From an uncultured archaeon (GTDB taxonomy: Archaea > Asgardarchaeota > Lokiarchaeia > Sigyniarchaeales > SOKP01): a DNA stretch of 17,773 nt. Location: assembly GCA_964388035.1 (NCBI GenBank), contig CAYLZE010000098.1:1-17773 (forward strand), read 5' to 3'. A program made the position numbers and the translations under genes. Every line of letters begins with the position of its first letter. Position 1 is the stretch's first letter. Below are positions 4,974 through 10,969 of this stretch, piece by piece. A model generated the notes under the pieces. That model was not told where the DNA came from. It was given only the letters and a program-made list of their open reading frames with translations, and did no database searches.

Positions 4974-7427
4974 ATGACTACGGAACAAATTGATGAAGTT
5001 TTATTAAAGAATGAAATGGAAAGCAGTTATATCGACTATGCAATGTCTGTAGTCGTTGGGAGAGCGATTCCAGATGTGAGAGATGGACTCAAGCCCGTAC
5101 ATAAGAGAATTATTTATGCAATGGAAGATAATAATCAATTATTTAATCGTCCTCACGTGAAGAGCGCTAGAATCGTGGGAGAGGTTTTGGGGAAATATCA
5201 TCCTCACGGAGATGCTGCTATTTATAACAGCTTGGTGCGAATGGCTCAAGATTTTTCCTTACGGTATCCTCTTATTAATCCCCAAGGAAATTTTGGATCA
5301 ATTGATGGAGATGAACCTGCTGCCATGCGATATACGGAAGCAAGGCTTTCCGAAATCGCAAATGAGTTAATTGAAGACTTACATAAAGATACGGTAGATT
5401 TTCAACCGAATTTTGACGATAGCTTGCAAGAACCTCGCTATTTGCCTGCTAAATTACCAAACATTTTAGTGAATGGCACTAAAGGGATAGCAGTTGGAAT
5501 GGCAACCTCCATGCCCCCTCATAATTTGATAGAAATTTGCCAAGGAATCATTTCTACGATAGATAATCCTGACATTTCCGTAGAAGAACTCATGGAAATC
5601 ATTAAAGGACCCGATTTTCCCACGGGAGGGATTATTACCAATACCACGGGAATATATAATGCATATTCCACGGGAAGGGGAAAAATATCTCTTAGGGGGA
5701 AAGTTAAACTGGAGGCAAAGGGTGAAAAAAAGAGGCTCGTAATTATAGAGATTCCTTATTTAATAAACAAGACGAGTCTGGTGGAATCCATTGCGAAACT
5801 AATTAAGGATGGAGTGCTAAAAGATGTAAAGGATTTGCGTGATGAATCTGACAGAGAAGGGTTGCGAATTGTATTAGATCTAAAAACCAATGCTCAGCCC
5901 TCTATAATCAAAAACATTCTTTTTAAACGTACGAGATTATTCACTCGTTTTATAATATTAAATTTAGTACTTACTAATGATGGTAAACTTCCTAAAATCC
6001 TTACATTAAGAGAATTAATTCAAGAATATATTGATCATAGATTAAATATAATCTTACGTCGTTCGGAATTCGATCGCAAAAAAGCAAAAAAAAGATTGCA
6101 TAAAGTAGAGGGATTATTAATCGCTCTCGACAATATTGATGAAGTGATTAAAATAATTAAGTCTTCTCGAGATGCGGATGAAGCAAAAACTAAATTAATA
6201 AGTTCTTACCTGTTAAGTGAAATTCAGGTAAAGGCAATTTTGAACATGCCTCTCTCAAGATTAACCAACTTAGAAAAGCAGAAACTAATTGATGAAAAGA
6301 CCTCGTTGACGAGCACAATTAAAGAATTAACAGATATTATAACTTCAAAAGAATTACGGCTCACAATTATCAAAAAGGAACTCACCGAAATGAGTAAAAA
6401 ATATGGGGATGAGCGTCGTACTAAGATCCTTCAAAATGAGGGGCTAAGAGATCTTGTGAAGAAGGACCTCATTAAAAAAGAGCCTACCATTGTTATAATG
6501 ACTAATAATCATTATATTAAGAGAATTTCTTTAGATGAATATGAAACCCAAAAACGAGGTGGGCGAGGAAAGAAAGGGATTACGATTGGAGAAGAAGATT
6601 TTATTTTAGATTTATTTGTATGTTCTACTCACGATACTATCCTCTTCTTCACGTCAAAAGGTCGTGTTTATTCCATAAAGGCTTTTGAAATTCCCTCTCA
6701 AAAACGGACTTCAAAAGGAAAACCGATCGTCAACATGATTCCCTTAAAAGAAAACGAAGATATTTCAGAAATGATCCCTATTAACAATTTTAATACCAAT
6801 GACATGCTCATCATGGTAACTCAAAAAGGGATCATAAAAAAATGCAGATTAAAGCTATTCTCTAAAATAAACAAATCAGGAATTAGAGCTCAAAAAATAA
6901 AACCCGAGGATATCTTGGTCCGCGTTAAAAAATTAACTAATGAATTACAAGATATTTTTATCACGACAAAATTGGGATATGCTATCAGATTTGATGAAAC
7001 AGAATTACGAGAACTGGGAAGAACATCAATGGGAGTTAAGGGAGTCGACTTGCGCGAAGATGATGAGGTGATAGATTGCTTGCTGGTAACGGATGATGAT
7101 ATCGTACTCACTATCACTAAAAAGGGCTATGCTCAAAGGACATTGATCAAAGAATATCGTAAAACAGGGAGAGCGGCGAAAGGTGTCATAAACATTACTT
7201 TACAAGAGGAAGAAAGAGATGAAGTCATCGCTTCGAGGATAGCTAAAGATAAAGATTTAATTATAGGAACAGAACAAGGGCAGATGATCCGGGTTCCCGT
7301 GGATTCCATTCGAATAACACATCGAAAGGCAAAAGGAGTGCGCGCCATTAATCTTTACGAAGATGATAATGTTTCAGCAATCGGAAAATGTGCAAAAGAA
7401 ATGAGCGATGAAGAATTGGACAATTAG
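4974..7427 (+). CDS. gyrA: DNA gyrase subunit A
   Basis: YAMSVVVGRAIPDVRDGLKPVHKR, GKYHPHGD, catalytic AAMRYTE, GPDFPTGG, GyrA-box QKRGGRG (6549-6569) and a beta-pinwheel CTD. The GyrA-box distinguishes it from ParC. SD GAGGT at 4963-4967. Confidence 0.97.
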   Translation: MTTEQIDEVLLKNEMESSYIDYAMSVVVGRAIPDVRDGLKPVHKRIIYAMEDNNQLFNRPHVKSARIVGEVLGKYHPHGDAAIYNSLVRMAQDFSLRYPLINPQGNFGSIDGDEPAAMRYTEARLSEIANELIEDLHKDTVDFQPNFDDSLQEPRYLPAKLPNILVNGTKGIAVGMATSMPPHNLIEICQGIISTIDNPDISVEELMEIIKGPDFPTGGIITNTTGIYNAYSTGRGKISLRGKVKLEAKGEKKRLVIIEIPYLINKTSLVESIAKLIKDGVLKDVKDLRDESDREGLRIVLDLKTNAQPSIIKNILFKRTRLFTRFIILNLVLTNDGKLPKILTLRELIQEYIDHRLNIILRRSEFDRKKAKKRLHKVEGLLIALDNIDEVIKIIKSSRDADEAKTKLISSYLLSEIQVKAILNMPLSRLTNLEKQKLIDEKTSLTSTIKELTDIITSKELRLTIIKKELTEMSKKYGDERRTKILQNEGLRDLVKKDLIKKEPTIVIMTNNHYIKRISLDEYETQKRGGRGKKGITIGEEDFILDLFVCSTHDTILFFTSKGRVYSIKAFEIPSQKRTSKGKPIVNMIPLKENEDISEMIPINNFNTNDMLIMVTQKGIIKKCRLKLFSKINKSGIRAQKIKPEDILVRVKKLTNELQDIFITTKLGYAIRFDETELRELGRTSMGVKGVDLREDDEVIDCLLVTDDDIVLTITKKGYAQRTLIKEYRKTGRAAKGVINITLQEEERDEVIASRIAKDKDLIIGTEQGQMIRVPVDSIRITHRKAKGVRAINLYEDDNVSAIGKCAKEMSDEELDN

Positions 7428-7493
7428 AATCAACATGTCCTTGAAATGATTAATGCGTATCATATTGCCTAAACTTCGGACTTTTCCTTATTT

Positions 7494-7515
7494 ATTAGGT
7501 TAATACCTAATTTTT
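7494..7515 (+). terminator. Hairpin plus T-tract downstream of gyrA (candidate terminator)
   Basis: ATTAGGT-TAAT-ACCTAAT (7-bp perfect stem) followed by TTTT, about 65 nt after the gyrA stop. Confidence 0.4.
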
Positions 7516-7523
7516 AAAAATGA

Positions 7524-7649
7524 TTATAGAGTTATTACCTTGATATCACAAGGAATATTTTTATAGAGTTATTACCTTGATATCACAAGGAATATTTTAA
7601 ATTCTTATAGAGTTTTTACCTTGATATCACAAGGAATATTTTAAACTCT
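7524..7649. repeat. Three tandem copies of a 37-bp palindrome-containing repeat (periods 37 and 44 bp)
   Basis: TTATAGAGTT(A/T)TTACCTTGATATCACAAGGAATATTT at 7524-7560, 7561-7597 and 7605-7641. Copies 2 and 3 are followed by TAAA(T/C)TC. The core is CCTTG-ATATCA-CAAGG. Confidence 0.95.
7639..7645 (+). promoter_or_regulatory. Candidate archaeal TATA box for the GIFT-RHH gene
   Basis: TTTTAAA preceded by purine-rich AAGGAA (BRE-like), 48 nt upstream of ATG 7693 and overlapping the end of repeat copy 3. Confidence 0.3.
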
Positions 7650-7692
7650 TGCTTTGAACTTCTCATGTTATGACTATCTAATAGGGAGTGAA

Positions 7693-8655
7693 ATGGAAAG
7701 TAATAGAAGAAATACTATAGGATTTGATCAATCTCATAATAATAAATTAATAATAGAAGAACCTGCTTTTTCAGATTTCTTAGAATATTTATTCAATTCC
7801 AATTTTAAAATTGGCAAAATTGAAGCGGGTTTAAATTATGAAAAACTCTCAGTATATGAAATATTTTTTATAGGGCTTCCAGAAGACTCATATCTTGAAG
7901 ATCACGAGATCGTGGATTTGGTTAAATACGTAGAAGATGGAGGAAGCTTATTCATTATAAATGATAATGGGGGAGACGTGAAAAATAAAAATAACCTATC
8001 TATTTTAACGAAACATTTCGGAATTTTTTTTAATCCTGATGAATTACATGATGAGGAACAATTTTCCTTGGATTCTTCTCGCCCCATTATAACGGATTTT
8101 CAATCTCATTTTATCAGCAATGATTTAACACAAATAATACATTCCAAAGGTTGCACCCTTACAGTTGATAAATCTATCGAACAAGAACAAGAAATAGATT
8201 TTAATATACACGTAAATGCTATAGCTTTTTCTTCGGAAAGTACCTCTTGGCGTGAGTATTACAATGGTGAAGAATGGATAAAAGAATCAAATATAAAACT
8301 GCCCATTATTGCTGCTACTCATTATGGACTGGGAAAAGTTGTGGCAATTGGAAATTTATCCATTTTTTCCAGCCTGCAAGATTCATATGGGATAAAAGCG
8401 GCAGATGATTTTAAATTTATATCAAATTCAATTGCTTGGCTATTGAATAAAGCATTTTCTGAAGAAATTAAGCAAACGCTCCCCATCATGCTTACGATTC
8501 CTATTGATCAAGAAATTTTTTATTGGATAAAAGAGAAGATTAAGCAAGGAAAATGGAAAAACATAAAGGAAATCGTAAATTTTGCTCTAAGAGTCGTAAA
8601 AATAAGAGAAGAAAATTCATCCCCTAAAAGAGAAGAATCCTTTTTAGGGATTTGA
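7693..8655 (+). CDS. GIFT (GldG/IFT52, DUF4350-like) domain protein with a C-terminal ribbon-helix-helix domain
   Basis: TIGFDQSHN..., EI..LVKYVEDGGSLFII.D.GG...N..L...FGI.FN.D, GCTLTV and PIIAA...G.GKVVAIG...IFS......D..F..N.I.WL follow the GIFT-domain pattern. The C-terminal LTIPIDQEIFYWIKEKIKQGKWKNIKEIVNFALR (within 8482-8601) resembles a CopG/ParD-type RHH. ATG 7693 with AGGGAG upstream is preferred over TTG 7654. Confidence 0.72.
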   Translation: MESNRRNTIGFDQSHNNKLIIEEPAFSDFLEYLFNSNFKIGKIEAGLNYEKLSVYEIFFIGLPEDSYLEDHEIVDLVKYVEDGGSLFIINDNGGDVKNKNNLSILTKHFGIFFNPDELHDEEQFSLDSSRPIITDFQSHFISNDLTQIIHSKGCTLTVDKSIEQEQEIDFNIHVNAIAFSSESTSWREYYNGEEWIKESNIKLPIIAATHYGLGKVVAIGNLSIFSSLQDSYGIKAADDFKFISNSIAWLLNKAFSEEIKQTLPIMLTIPIDQEIFYWIKEKIKQGKWKNIKEIVNFALRVVKIREENSSPKREESFLGI

Positions 8656-8693: not shown

Positions 8694-9224
8694 ATGATTA
8701 AAACTTCAAAAAAGGAACTTCTAATCGGTTTAATATCTGATACTCACGTTCCATCTCGAGAACCAGCTATACCCGAACAGATCATAAAAGATTTTAAACG
8801 ACGAAAAATCGATTTTCTCTTTCACATGGGAGATTTTGAACAGTATTCTGTATACGAGAAATTAATTGAAACCTTTGGAAAAGATAAGGTAATTGCTGTC
8901 TTTGGGAACATGGATGATGAAAAAATCAGAAAAATGCTACCGTCCCAATTAGAATTCGATTTGTTTGGTCATAAAATTTTCATGACCCACGGTTTAGGCG
9001 GTCCGAACATTATTATTAAACGGCTCAATAAAAATTTTGATCTATCCAAATACGATATCATTATTTTTGGGCACGTGCATCGTCCATATAACGAGAGATG
9101 GAGAGATGGAAAGCTTTATTTGAATCCTGGAACACCTACTGATAAGAGATTTACAGATATTAATTCTTATGCTTTTCTAACACTTTCTGAGTCAAAAGTT
9201 AATTTTGATCTTGTTTATCTCTAA
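8694..9224 (+). CDS. Metallophosphoesterase, MJ0936/YfcE/Vps29 family
   Basis: ISDTH, HMGD, GNMD, THG, FGHVH and LNPG calcineurin-like motifs in a 176-aa protein. Confidence 0.9.
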   Translation: MIKTSKKELLIGLISDTHVPSREPAIPEQIIKDFKRRKIDFLFHMGDFEQYSVYEKLIETFGKDKVIAVFGNMDDEKIRKMLPSQLEFDLFGHKIFMTHGLGGPNIIIKRLNKNFDLSKYDIIIFGHVHRPYNERWRDGKLYLNPGTPTDKRFTDINSYAFLTLSESKVNFDLVYL

Positions 9225-10339: not shown

Positions 10340-10954
10340 TTAAGTTCCTTCTATAGCCTTTCCCGAAAGCTTTTTGTAGTGGTTTAAAACCGCTTGCCTT
10401 GTTGCGTAAACAAATGCTTTTTTAACGTTGACACCAGTTATAGCAATGGTCTCATAAATTAAAGTATGGTTCAATTTTGCCGTGTCAAGCACTTTTCTAA
10501 TTTTAGAAATCTCCACGATATCCTCTAAATCACGCTTATTGGCAAGTACTACTAAAGGAACATCTGGAGGCTCAGTAATACCCGAAGGAATCAAGCGATC
10601 TCCATAAAATTTTAATAATTCTTTAAGAGACCAGATGTCCTCGTCCCATTGATCTATTAACGAATCCCAGGTAAAGATGACCGCATCTGTTCCTTTAAGA
10701 ACGGTTTGTCTCTGAAATTTATGCCTCCTCTGCCCTGCTACAGTATAGACTTGAAAAACTACGTTAGAAACTCTGGCTACAACTCTATCAAAGAATAATG
10801 TCCGTCCCGTGGGATCTTGAATTTGTTGCATTTCTCCACTTGCTAACCCTTCCTTATGATATACCCATTCAAGTGCAGTAGTTTTACCTCCCAAACTGGG
10901 ACCGTAAAAACAAACTTTAAAGACTAATGTTCCATCTCCTCGACGACTCGGCAG
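10340..10954 (-). CDS. MglA-like (Arf/Rab-related) small GTPase, 204 aa, probable CTG start
   Basis: The extended frame reads (M)PSRRGDGTLVFKVCFYGPSLGGKTT (G1), PTGRTLFFD (G2, MglA-type with intrinsic Arg), YTVAGQ (G3), LANKRD (G4) and TIAITG (G5). The ORF-track start at TTG 10894 falls inside the P-loop. Confidence 0.9.
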   Translation of the reverse strand: MPSRRGDGTLVFKVCFYGPSLGGKTTALEWVYHKEGLASGEMQQIQDPTGRTLFFDRVVARVSNVVFQVYTVAGQRRHKFQRQTVLKGTDAVIFTWDSLIDQWDEDIWSLKELLKFYGDRLIPSGITEPPDVPLVVLANKRDLEDIVEISKIRKVLDTAKLNHTLIYETIAITGVNVKKAFVYATRQAVLNHYKKLSGKAIEGT

Positions 10955-10962
10955 CGGTTAGA

Positions 10963-10969
10963 CACCTCC
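10963..10969 (-). promoter_or_regulatory. Strong Shine-Dalgarno GGAGGTG for the GTPase
   Basis: The minus strand reads GGAGGTG-TCTAACCG-CTG, an 8-nt spacing to the in-frame CTG. Confidence 0.8.

What the first reader, a model, noticed from the sequence alone, without database searches (positions are those of the whole stretch)
7524..8655. Candidate one-component regulator: soluble IFT52/GIFT domain fused to an RHH, preceded by a triple palindromic operator-like array
Seen: the protein has no signal peptide or TM segment. By eye its N-terminal ~250 aa follow the GIFT domain of ciliary IFT52 and GldG (KYVEDGGSLFII..GG, FGI.FN.D, GCTLTV, GKVVAIG..IFS, I.WL), and it ends in an RHH-like beta-helix-helix. 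Three palindromic repeats sit directly upstream, the last abutting a TATA-like box. Known: prokaryotic GIFT domains are typically extracytoplasmic or ABC-associated, IFT52 is a ciliary transport scaffold, and RHH dimers often bind cooperatively to tandem sites at their own promoter. Inference: an autoregulated transcription factor using a GIFT domain as a ligand or protein sensor. I do not know this architecture as characterised.
Basis: partly seen in the sequence, partly recalled or inferred. Interest (0 to 1): 0.78.

Follow-up and report, generated by a model that had tools for sequence, protein, structure and literature searches.

The report
Lokiarchaeal GIFT-RHH protein with upstream repeats
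An Asgard (Lokiarchaeia) archaeon encodes a soluble protein that joins an IFT52-like GIFT domain to a ParD-type ribbon-helix-helix dimer module, probably a DNA-binding regulator, but the three palindromic repeats in front of it occur only in this genome, so their role as its operator is unproven.

Summary
Window 7693-8655 (+) encodes a 320-aa cytoplasmic protein. Residues ~7-253 are a GIFT domain: Pfam IFT52_GIFT scores 38 bits against a cut-off of 27.2, and the best fold match is the IFT52 N-domain (E 2e-11). Residues ~262-305 model as a ParD-type ribbon-helix-helix (RHH). The homodimer model scores 0.60 against 0.00 for the best control, and nearly all top fold matches are RHH proteins.

Three near-identical 37/44-nt units, each carrying CCTTGATATCACAAGG, lie at 7520-7644.

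The array is unique to this genome. It is missing from all 73 related loci, from the same-genus orthologue and from a 75%-identical syntenic one. Only the nested hexamer TGATAT/ATATCA recurs at orthologous promoters, where it is the best-conserved intergenic block.

The strongest new fact is synteny. In 64 of 74 loci the gene is followed by an MJ0936/YfcE/Vps29-type metallophosphoesterase, and the two ORFs overlap in 26 of them.

The family was found only in Promethearchaeota, in 69 of 91 genomes of one GTDB family. I found no paper on it.

Best reading (0.4): a dimeric GIFT-sensor/RHH regulator of its own operon. Rivals: the RHH is only a dimerisation module, or the array is a recent duplication or a gyrA terminator.

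First readers of this scan noted the same family in other genomes.

The parts
7494..7515 (+). Small hairpin ATTAGG-TTAATA-CCTAAT running into a T5 run, 67 nt after the gyrA stop; terminator-like
   Evidence: Read directly from the sequence. The scan did not call it because it has too few G-C pairs.
7520..7644 (.). Three tandem units (7520-7563, 7557-7600, 7601-7644; spacing 37 and 44 nt), each TTATAGAG...CCTTGATATCACAAGG...AATATTTT
   Evidence: Unique in the own genome. Absent from relatives.
7538..7553 (.). Palindrome 1: CCTTG-ATATCA-CAAGG with the nested perfect palindrome TGATATCA
7575..7590 (.). Palindrome 2, identical to palindrome 1
7619..7634 (.). Palindrome 3, identical, followed by the TATA-like AATATTTTAAAC (7635-7646)
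7684..7688 (+). GGGAG ribosome-binding site, 4 nt before the ATG
   Evidence: Sequence
7693..8655 (+). GIFT-RHH gene, 320 aa (P0001)
7711..8451 (+). GIFT domain, residues about 7-253
8476..8607 (+). ParD-type ribbon-helix-helix, residues about 262-305: strand 262-273, helix A 273-284, G286-K-W-K-N loop, helix B 291-305
8694..9224 (+). Metallophos_2 phosphoesterase (MJ0936/YfcE/Vps29 superfamily) with metal-ligand motifs intact; conserved operon partner
   Evidence: motifs SDTH, MGD, GNMD, THG, GHVH read

Best explanation
Window 7693-8655 encodes a cytoplasmic homodimeric protein found only in one lineage of Lokiarchaeia. It joins an acidic N-terminal GIFT domain, which has many invariant polar residues, to a C-terminal ParD-type ribbon-helix-helix through a short linker. 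Two RHH modules pair through an antiparallel beta-ribbon centred on T268 and through their B helices.

The most likely mechanism is that of a one-component regulator, as in NikR or PutA. The RHH ribbon would bind short palindromic DNA at the promoter of its own operon (GIFT-RHH plus the downstream metallophosphoesterase). The GIFT domain would bind an unknown ligand or partner and modulate that binding.

The three palindromic units in front of this copy are a recent triplication specific to this species. Each carries the palindrome TGATATCA, whose half-site (TGATAT/ATATCA) is the conserved core of orthologous promoters. They could therefore be an amplified operator.

Shown here: domain folds, modelled dimer, repeats, synteny and distribution. 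Inferred: DNA binding, the operator role, ligand sensing and co-transcription.
For: GIFT domain.

RHH fold: the only PDB profile hits are ParD. The Foldseek top four are ParD at about 1 A rmsd. The VIA-align wide list is almost purely RHH DNA-binding proteins: ParD, PrpA, NikR, CopA, PutA, omega, Arc, AmrZ, SvtR.

Homodimer: ipSAE 0.60 against a best control of 0.00. This mark was reached by 20 of 30 proteins solved as pairs of one chain and by 1 of 23 solved as single chains. The runs share at least 96% of contacts and partner pLDDT is at least 72. Contacts 13-13, 15-11 and 16-10 describe an antiparallel ribbon, and 43-43 a helix B to helix B contact. Because ParD dimers are solved, this pass may reflect likeness to them.

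The RHH segment, including the G-[KR]-W loop and the NFAL helix, is conserved in orthologues and in 35-40% identical paralogues. IMG names one paralogue an Arc/MetJ-type RHH regulator.

Cis-elements: the three palindromes end about 50 nt before the ATG and abut a TATA-like box. ATATCA/TGATAT occurs in 33 of 69 orthologue upstream regions against 24 of 264 controls, and in 5 of 12 unrelated upstream sequence clusters. It is the best conserved block of the cupin-GIFT intergenic region, with T, A and C invariant in 18 of 18 loci.

Comparable non-coding tandem arrays are rare in this genome: 12 arrays of period 25-70, most with periods divisible by three.
Against: The array and CCTTG-N6-CAAGG are absent from all 73 related loci, from the 75%-identical syntenic orthologue and from the same-genus genome.

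TGATATCA occurs 265 times in the genome and is not enriched in non-coding DNA, 31 of 265 against 17% non-coding. There is therefore no regulon signal.

The conserved ATATCA block could be the BRE/TATA of the divergent cupin gene, and kinship among the loci inflates the enrichment.

Palindrome spacings of 37 and 44 bp are not in helical phase.

The predicted DNA-facing strand residues are M/Y, T, P and D/E, no basic arm precedes the strand, and the RHH segment has a net charge of only +2.

Sequence matches to RHH families are below every curated threshold.

Paralogues carry long charged or coiled-coil tails after the RHH, which suits a scaffold as well as a regulator.
Confidence: 0.4

Rival explanations
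1. The RHH is only a dimerisation or partner-binding module. The protein would then be a dimeric scaffold or enzyme partner that works with the downstream metallophosphoesterase and binds no DNA, much as ParD uses its RHH to dimerise and its tail to hold ParE.
For: GIFT-RHH is followed by the phosphoesterase in 64 of 74 loci. The ORFs overlap by 8-29 nt in 26 loci and are 72 nt or less apart in 25 more, which suggests translational coupling. Protein conservation is high, 57-62% identity across genera. Paralogues have coiled-coil tails. The beta-strand face is non-basic and the protein is acidic overall, with N-domain K+R 20 against D+E 40. The eukaryotic GIFT domains in IFT52 and OST48 sit inside protein complexes (PDB titles).
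Against: Nearly every structural neighbour of the C-terminal domain is a DNA-binding RHH. The loop and helix B N-terminus that contact phosphates in RHH proteins are conserved and lysine-rich (GKWKN). A conserved hexamer sits at orthologous promoters. No interaction with the phosphoesterase was tested.
Confidence: 0.3
2. The triple repeat has nothing to do with this protein. It would be a recent tandem duplication of spacer DNA that arose after the cupin gene was lost between gyrA and the GIFT gene. It is either neutral or acts as stacked hairpin plus T-run terminators that insulate the GIFT operon from gyrBA read-through.
For: The copies are 93-100% identical, so they are young. The array is absent from every relative. 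In 56 of 74 loci a convergent cupin gene sits in this spacer, but it is missing here and lies on contig C73 instead. Each unit scans as a terminator-like hairpin followed by a T-run, 4 sites found against 0.5 expected. A similar hairpin plus T5 precedes the array at 7494-7515.
Against: Archaeal termination is thought to need only oligo-T (established knowledge). Units 2 and 3 have only T4. The stems are weak, at 5 bp. Non-coding arrays of this kind are rare in the genome. The units carry the same TGATATCA core seen at some orthologous promoters.
Confidence: 0.4
3. The array is an operator or binding array for a different DNA-binding protein, or a CRISPR-like or structured-RNA element.
For: Palindromes in direct repeat are typical protein-binding sites. 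The RNA fold z-score is -3.1.
Against: No Rfam family matches; the best hit has E 0.33 and is far below its gathering score. There are no spacers, and no other copy within 2 mismatches forms an array in the genome. The centroid fold shows only one small hairpin.
Confidence: 0.1

Closest known systems
IFT52 N-terminal GIFT domain (PDB 5fms, 5fmr; Pfam PF23355)
   Same: It is the best sequence and fold match. Both share the GG...GG[DE] and N.N.L...GI..N.D signature, and both are soluble and cytoplasmic.
   Different: Identity is only 16-19%. The IFT52 central and C-terminal (IFT46-binding) regions are absent. The archaeal family has its own invariant GFDxSHxN motif, which the aligned IFT52 sequence lacks. 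It carries an RHH instead. It is restricted to one Lokiarchaeial lineage, so it is not an IFT52 orthologue.
ParD-type RHH antitoxins (PDB 7b22, 8c24; Pfam PF03693)
   Same: The fold of residues 262-305 matches at about 1 A rmsd. The G-R/K-aromatic loop and the S/N-x-x-E-V/I-I-x-x-A-L helix B pattern are shared, as is the modelled ribbon dimer.
   Different: Scores are below the family thresholds. The RHH is C-terminal to a 255-aa domain rather than N-terminal. No ParE-like toxin gene is adjacent; the neighbour is a phosphoesterase.
NikR and PutA (RHH regulators fused to a sensor or enzyme domain)
   Same: They follow the same design principle, an RHH dimer joined to a ligand-binding or catalytic domain in one chain. 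NikR and the PutA RHH are among the fold matches.
   Different: The domain order is reversed, with the RHH last. The sensor domain is a GIFT domain rather than an ACT-like or proline dehydrogenase domain. The ligand and DNA binding are unknown.
GldG / ABC_transp_aux, DUF4350 and OST48 (other GIFT-domain families)
   Same: They belong to the same domain superfamily. NCBI names paralogues 'Gldg family protein'.
   Different: Those are membrane-anchored or extracytoplasmic. Here there is no signal peptide or TM segment, and the orthologue scores far lower on those models, 14-16 bits against 38 for IFT52_GIFT.

Membership tests
GIFT domain (Pfam PF23355 IFT52_GIFT) | Score above the Pfam gathering threshold | tested here: met
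   38.0-38.7 bits against 27.2. All 120 listed homologues carry PF23355.
GIFT domain (Pfam PF23355 IFT52_GIFT) | Fold similarity to the solved IFT52 N-domain | tested here: met
   Foldseek top five rows are 5fms/5fmr, E 1.9e-11 to 5e-10, TM on target 0.71-0.79. The model is of moderate quality, pLDDT 67.6.
IFT52 orthologue (IFT-B core subunit) | Central and C-terminal regions that bind IFT88/70 and IFT46 | tested here: not met
   The protein ends at residue 320 with an RHH. No Pfam hit lies beyond the GIFT domain. The PDB IFT52 match covers residues 2-118 only.
Ribbon-helix-helix superfamily | Strand-helix-helix topology matching solved RHH domains | tested here: met
   The AF2 model (pLDDT 83) has an extended N-terminal segment plus helices at 18-29 and 36-54 of the fragment. 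Foldseek top four are ParD at 0.9-1.1 A rmsd. About 45 of 50 VIA-align wide rows are RHH proteins, but Z is only 3.6-6.4.
Ribbon-helix-helix superfamily | Obligate dimer through an intersubunit antiparallel beta-ribbon | tested here: met
   The model only: ipSAE 0.60 against a best control of 0.00, with symmetric strand contacts around residue 268. It may reflect likeness to solved ParD dimers.
Ribbon-helix-helix superfamily | Sequence-specific DNA binding through the ribbon | not testable with these tools
   The predicted outward-facing residues are M/Y266, T268, P270 and D/E272. This is not decisive.
ParD antitoxin family (PF03693 / TIGR02606) | Score above the curated cut-off | tested here: not met
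   NCBIfam 14.8 bits against 46.2. Pfam best E 0.014 in 2 of 25 members. PDB profile E 1.3.
ParD antitoxin family (PF03693 / TIGR02606) | Adjacent ParE/RelE-type toxin gene | tested here: not met
   The downstream gene is a Metallophos_2 phosphoesterase in 64 of 74 loci.
Autoregulated one-component regulator | Sensor and DNA-binding domain in one polypeptide | tested here: met
   GIFT plus RHH architecture. That the GIFT domain acts as a sensor is inferred.
Autoregulated one-component regulator | Operator motif conserved upstream of orthologues | tested here: inconclusive
   CCTTG-N4-8-CAAGG is found in 0 of 73 loci. The nested hexamer ATATCA/TGATAT is enriched and is the best-conserved block, but it may be a core-promoter element.

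The most novel reading that the evidence does not exclude
A cytoplasmic IFT52-like GIFT domain in Lokiarchaeia works as the ligand- or partner-sensing module of an RHH transcription factor that controls an operon with a Vps29-superfamily phosphoesterase. That would give the first functional handle on what soluble GIFT domains bind, and so a testable hint at the ancestral role of the IFT52 GIFT domain. The species-specific triple palindrome would be an amplified operator.
Probability: 0.25. Interest if true: 0.65.

Novelty: new variant of a known kind. Interest (0 to 1): 0.5.

Why it matters
GIFT domains link IFT52, OST48 and bacterial GldG (Beatson and Ponting 2004, PMID 15288869, cited in PMC3495828), but what they bind is not known.

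This is a conserved soluble archaeal family whose best match is IFT52. It is fused to a probable DNA-binding RHH and sits in a tight operon with an apparently active phosphoesterase. That makes it a tractable system, since the protein could be tested in vitro for a ligand or partner with DNA binding as the readout.

It would also add a new sensor type to the RHH regulators.

It is not evidence for an Asgard origin of intraflagellar transport. The family was found in only one Lokiarchaeial lineage and lacks the rest of IFT52.

Tried and rejected
1. CCTTG-N4-8-CAAGG upstream of 73 related loci: none found.

2. The exact 26-mer of the repeat in metagenome contigs: 0 hits. The spacer DNA in 30 relatives gave only short AT-rich chance matches.

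3. Aligning the three cupin-less spacers (window, L081, L001): no alignable homology.

4. A genome-wide TGATATCA regulon: 265 copies, not enriched in non-coding DNA. Rejected.

5. A known RNA family in 7380-7750: none. A CRISPR-like array: no spacers and no other copies. Rejected.

6. A cupin remnant in the spacer: none. The cupin homologue is on contig C73.

7. A shared motif upstream of the RHH-bearing paralogues: none obvious.

8. The full-length AF2 monomer gave low confidence for the C-terminus (pLDDT 36-69), as expected for an obligate dimer. The domain alone modelled well.

9. Literature searches for IFT52 with Asgard (0 papers), and for GIFT domain with archaea, returned nothing relevant.

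10. A ParDE-type toxin-antitoxin reading: rejected, because no toxin gene is adjacent.

11. Origin of replication or centromere array: considered because some RHH proteins bind direct repeats. No orc1/cdc6 or partition gene lies in the window and the array is not conserved, so this is rejected as unsupported.

Full report
WHAT IS THERE

The window comes from a 5.47-Mb, 33% G+C genome. Its relatives are all labelled Promethearchaeota/Lokiarchaeia.

The flagged ORF is listed from TTG 7654. The real start is almost certainly ATG 7693. GGGAG sits 4 nt upstream of it, and all orthologues align from this Met. The product, P0001, is 320 aa. It has no hydrophobic segment (maximum 19-residue Kyte-Doolittle mean 1.26) and a polar N-terminus, so it is cytoplasmic.

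N-TERMINAL DOMAIN

- Pfam IFT52_GIFT is the only family above its gathering score, 38 bits against 27.2. DUF2194, DUF4159, DUF4350 and ABC_transp_aux (GldG) follow below threshold.
- The best PDB sequence hits are IFT52 N-domains: 5fms at E 1.2e-5, then 5fmr and 8bd7.
- An AF2 model built on 26 orthologues (pLDDT 67.6) matches 5fms/5fmr best by Foldseek, E 1.9e-11 to 5e-10 and TM on target 0.71-0.79. OST48/Wbp1 and ThuA-like or GATase1-like proteins come next.

The protein is not an IFT52 orthologue, because nothing corresponds to the IFT52 central and C-terminal regions. The archaeal family also has its own invariant polar set (G10-F-D12, H15, N17, E22, D91, N114, D116, H139) that the aligned IFT52 sequence lacks at the N-terminal motif. 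Such a set suggests a ligand or catalytic site, but I could not identify it.

C-TERMINAL DOMAIN

Residues 262-305 read as strand (TLPIMLTIPIDQ), helix, the loop G-K-W-K-N, then helix (IKEIVNFALRVVKIR). The pattern is conserved in orthologues and in 35-40% identical longer paralogues.

Sequence searches stay below threshold, yet every weak hit is ParD:
- NCBIfam ParD, E 0.022.
- The only two PDB profile hits are ParD2 7b22 and ParD1 8c24, at E 1.3 and 1.8.
- Pfam ParD_antitoxin matches 2 of 25 members.

- The domain alone models at pLDDT 83.
- Its four best Foldseek matches are ParD antitoxins at 0.9-1.1 A rmsd over 42-44 columns. E-values are weak (0.5-5.6) because the domain is small.
- A Foldseek-independent comparison with 48,161 chains returns a list made almost entirely of RHH proteins: ParD, PrpA, TacA, NikR, CopA, PutA, omega, ORF56, SvtR, AmrZ, Arc and FitA. 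Z is 3.6-6.4, modest in absolute terms.
- A two-copy model scored ipSAE 0.60 against 0.00 for the best of three controls. That mark was reached by 20 of 30 proteins solved as pairs of one chain and 1 of 23 solved as single chains. The runs agree in at least 96% of contacts, and partner pLDDT is at least 72.
- The contacts (13-13, 15-11 and 16-10 in fragment numbering, which centres on T268, and 43-43) describe the antiparallel intersubunit ribbon and the helix B to helix B packing of an RHH dimer.

ParD dimers are solved, so this pass shows likeness to them rather than proven binding.

THE REPEATS

Three units lie at 7520-7563, 7557-7600 and 7601-7644. They are 93-100% identical and spaced 37 and 44 nt. 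Each holds CCTTG-ATATCA-CAAGG with the nested perfect palindrome TGATATCA. Each is flanked by TATA-like TTATAGAG and AATATTTT.

The 16-mer occurs exactly three times in the genome, all here. Only 12 tandem arrays of period 25-70 exist in the whole genome, and most have periods divisible by three. The feature is therefore real and rare.

IS IT THE OPERATOR?

It failed:
- No CCTTG-N4-8-CAAGG upstream of any of 73 related loci.
- No array in the 75%-identical, fully syntenic orthologue L081, or in the same-genus orthologue.
- No match to the spacer in 30 relatives.
- No exact copy of the unit in the metagenome collection.

A weaker signal survives. The hexamer ATATCA/TGATAT occurs within 110 nt upstream of 33 of 69 orthologues, against 24 of 264 other genes in the same loci. 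It occurs in 5 of 12 mutually unalignable upstream sequence clusters. In the 68-81-nt divergent cupin-GIFT intergenic region it is the most conserved block, AATAATATCA, with T, A and C invariant in 18 of 18 representative loci. Some clades show it as inverted repeats: ATATCA-N9-TGATAT-N2-ATATCA, or TGATATCA itself in L004, L007 and L008.

This fits an 8-bp palindromic site for one RHH dimer. It fits a BRE/TATA element of the divergent cupin promoter equally well, and kinship among the loci inflates the counts. TGATATCA is not enriched in non-coding DNA genome-wide, 31 of 265 copies against 17% non-coding.

An alternative reading of the array comes from synteny. In 56 of 74 loci a cupin gene on the opposite strand lies between gyrA and the GIFT gene. 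Here it is missing; its homologue is on contig C73 and no remnant is left in the spacer. As a result gyrA and the GIFT gene are co-directional across a 265-nt spacer.

Each repeat unit scans as a hairpin followed by a T-run, 4 sites against 0.5 expected in shuffles. A similar hairpin plus T5 lies at 7494-7515. Stacked terminators, or simply a young neutral duplication, are therefore live rivals.

No Rfam family matches.

CONTEXT, THE STRONGEST NEW FACT

Across 74 loci the order is gyrB, gyrA, [cupin on the minus strand], [M14-like], GIFT-RHH, Metallophos_2, [144-aa ORF], MglA-like GTPase on the minus strand, DEAD-box helicase.

The phosphoesterase follows GIFT-RHH in 64 of 74 loci. The two ORFs overlap by 8-29 nt in 26 loci and are 72 nt or less apart in 25 more; the gap here is 38 nt. 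That argues for one operon and possibly translational coupling.

The phosphoesterase is closest to 2kkn and MJ0936, then Vps29. It keeps the metal-ligand motifs SDTH, MGD, GNMD, THG and GHVH (read), so it looks like an active enzyme rather than a Vps29-like scaffold.

DISTRIBUTION

At E 1e-60 or better, the family occurs in 69 of 91 sampled genomes of the window's own GTDB family and in 2 of 9 of a sister family. It was found in none of about 200 genomes of the other families of the phylum (genomes at least 80% complete).

All named members are Promethearchaeota. One record labelled as a Nanopelagicaceae bacterium shares the same synteny (L063) and is probably mis-binned. Annotation pipelines call the paralogues 'Gldg family protein' or 'Arc/MetJ-type RHH regulator'. 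I found no paper on the family. A wider set of soluble prokaryotic GIFT proteins with coiled-coil tails also scores best on IFT52_GIFT.

MECHANISM

Best reading (0.4): a dimeric one-component regulator in the manner of NikR or PutA. The RHH ribbon would bind short palindromes at the promoter of the GIFT-RHH/phosphoesterase operon, and the GIFT domain would supply the signal input. The window's triple palindrome would be a species-specific amplification carrying the TGATATCA core.

Main rival for the protein (0.3): the RHH only dimerises the protein, which acts together with the phosphoesterase. Arguments for this are the non-basic strand face (M/Y266, T268, P270, D/E272), the acidic protein, the unusually high conservation and the coiled-coil paralogues.

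Main rival for the array (0.4, compatible with either protein model): a young duplication or terminator stack unrelated to the RHH.

VERDICT

This is a new variant of a known kind, an RHH protein with a novel fused domain, and is of moderate interest. It does not by itself bear on the origin of intraflagellar transport. First readers of this scan flagged the same family in several other genomes. I used those notes only as leads, and tested the phosphoesterase adjacency myself.

Noticed in passing
window 10340-10969 (-): The MglA-like small GTPase (best PDB hits MglA, E 2e-17) has no ATG, GTG or TTG start upstream of its P-loop. The first canonical start, TTG 10894, lies inside GxxxxGKT. The frame is open for about 21 more codons (PLPSRRGDGTLVFKVCFYGPSLGGKTT) back to a stop.
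   Followed up: partly
window 8694-9224 (+) and 64 of 74 related loci: An MJ0936/YfcE/Vps29-superfamily phosphoesterase with all metal-ligand motifs intact lies directly downstream of the GIFT-RHH gene and often overlaps it. An MglA-like GTPase on the opposite strand is nearby in 52 of 74 loci.
   Followed up: partly
L010-L072, region between gyrA and the GIFT gene: A 119-aa cupin_2 gene diverges from the GIFT gene across a 68-81-nt spacer in 56 of 74 loci. It is absent at this position in the window, L081 and L001. The window genome keeps a 49%-identical cupin on contig C73.
   Followed up: partly
own genome G000:C28:17266-18135 (-), plus C54, C38 and C62: There are four further GIFT-domain paralogues in the same genome. 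The C28 copy (about 430 aa, 34% identity) keeps the RHH-like segment and adds a long C-terminal tail. The C62 copy has an in-frame TAA.
   Followed up: no
proteins P0159, P0166, P0171, P0189: These are soluble prokaryotic proteins of 420-500 aa with an N-terminal GIFT domain that scores 52-61 bits on IFT52_GIFT, followed by coiled-coil-like tails. Their length recalls IFT52, but their organisms are unknown.
   Followed up: no
L013, L035, L037, L040, L056, L059, L061, L062, about 40-80 nt before the GIFT start: A second conserved upstream motif, AATTATTTAGATGATTAWWTAAATAG, replaces the ATATCA block in clades where an M14-like gene precedes the GIFT gene.
   Followed up: no
L063 (DATKTW010000028.1): This record is labelled Candidatus Nanopelagicaceae bacterium but carries the full Lokiarchaeial gyrB-gyrA-cupin-GIFT-phosphoesterase-GTPase synteny. 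It is probably a mis-binned contig.
   Followed up: no
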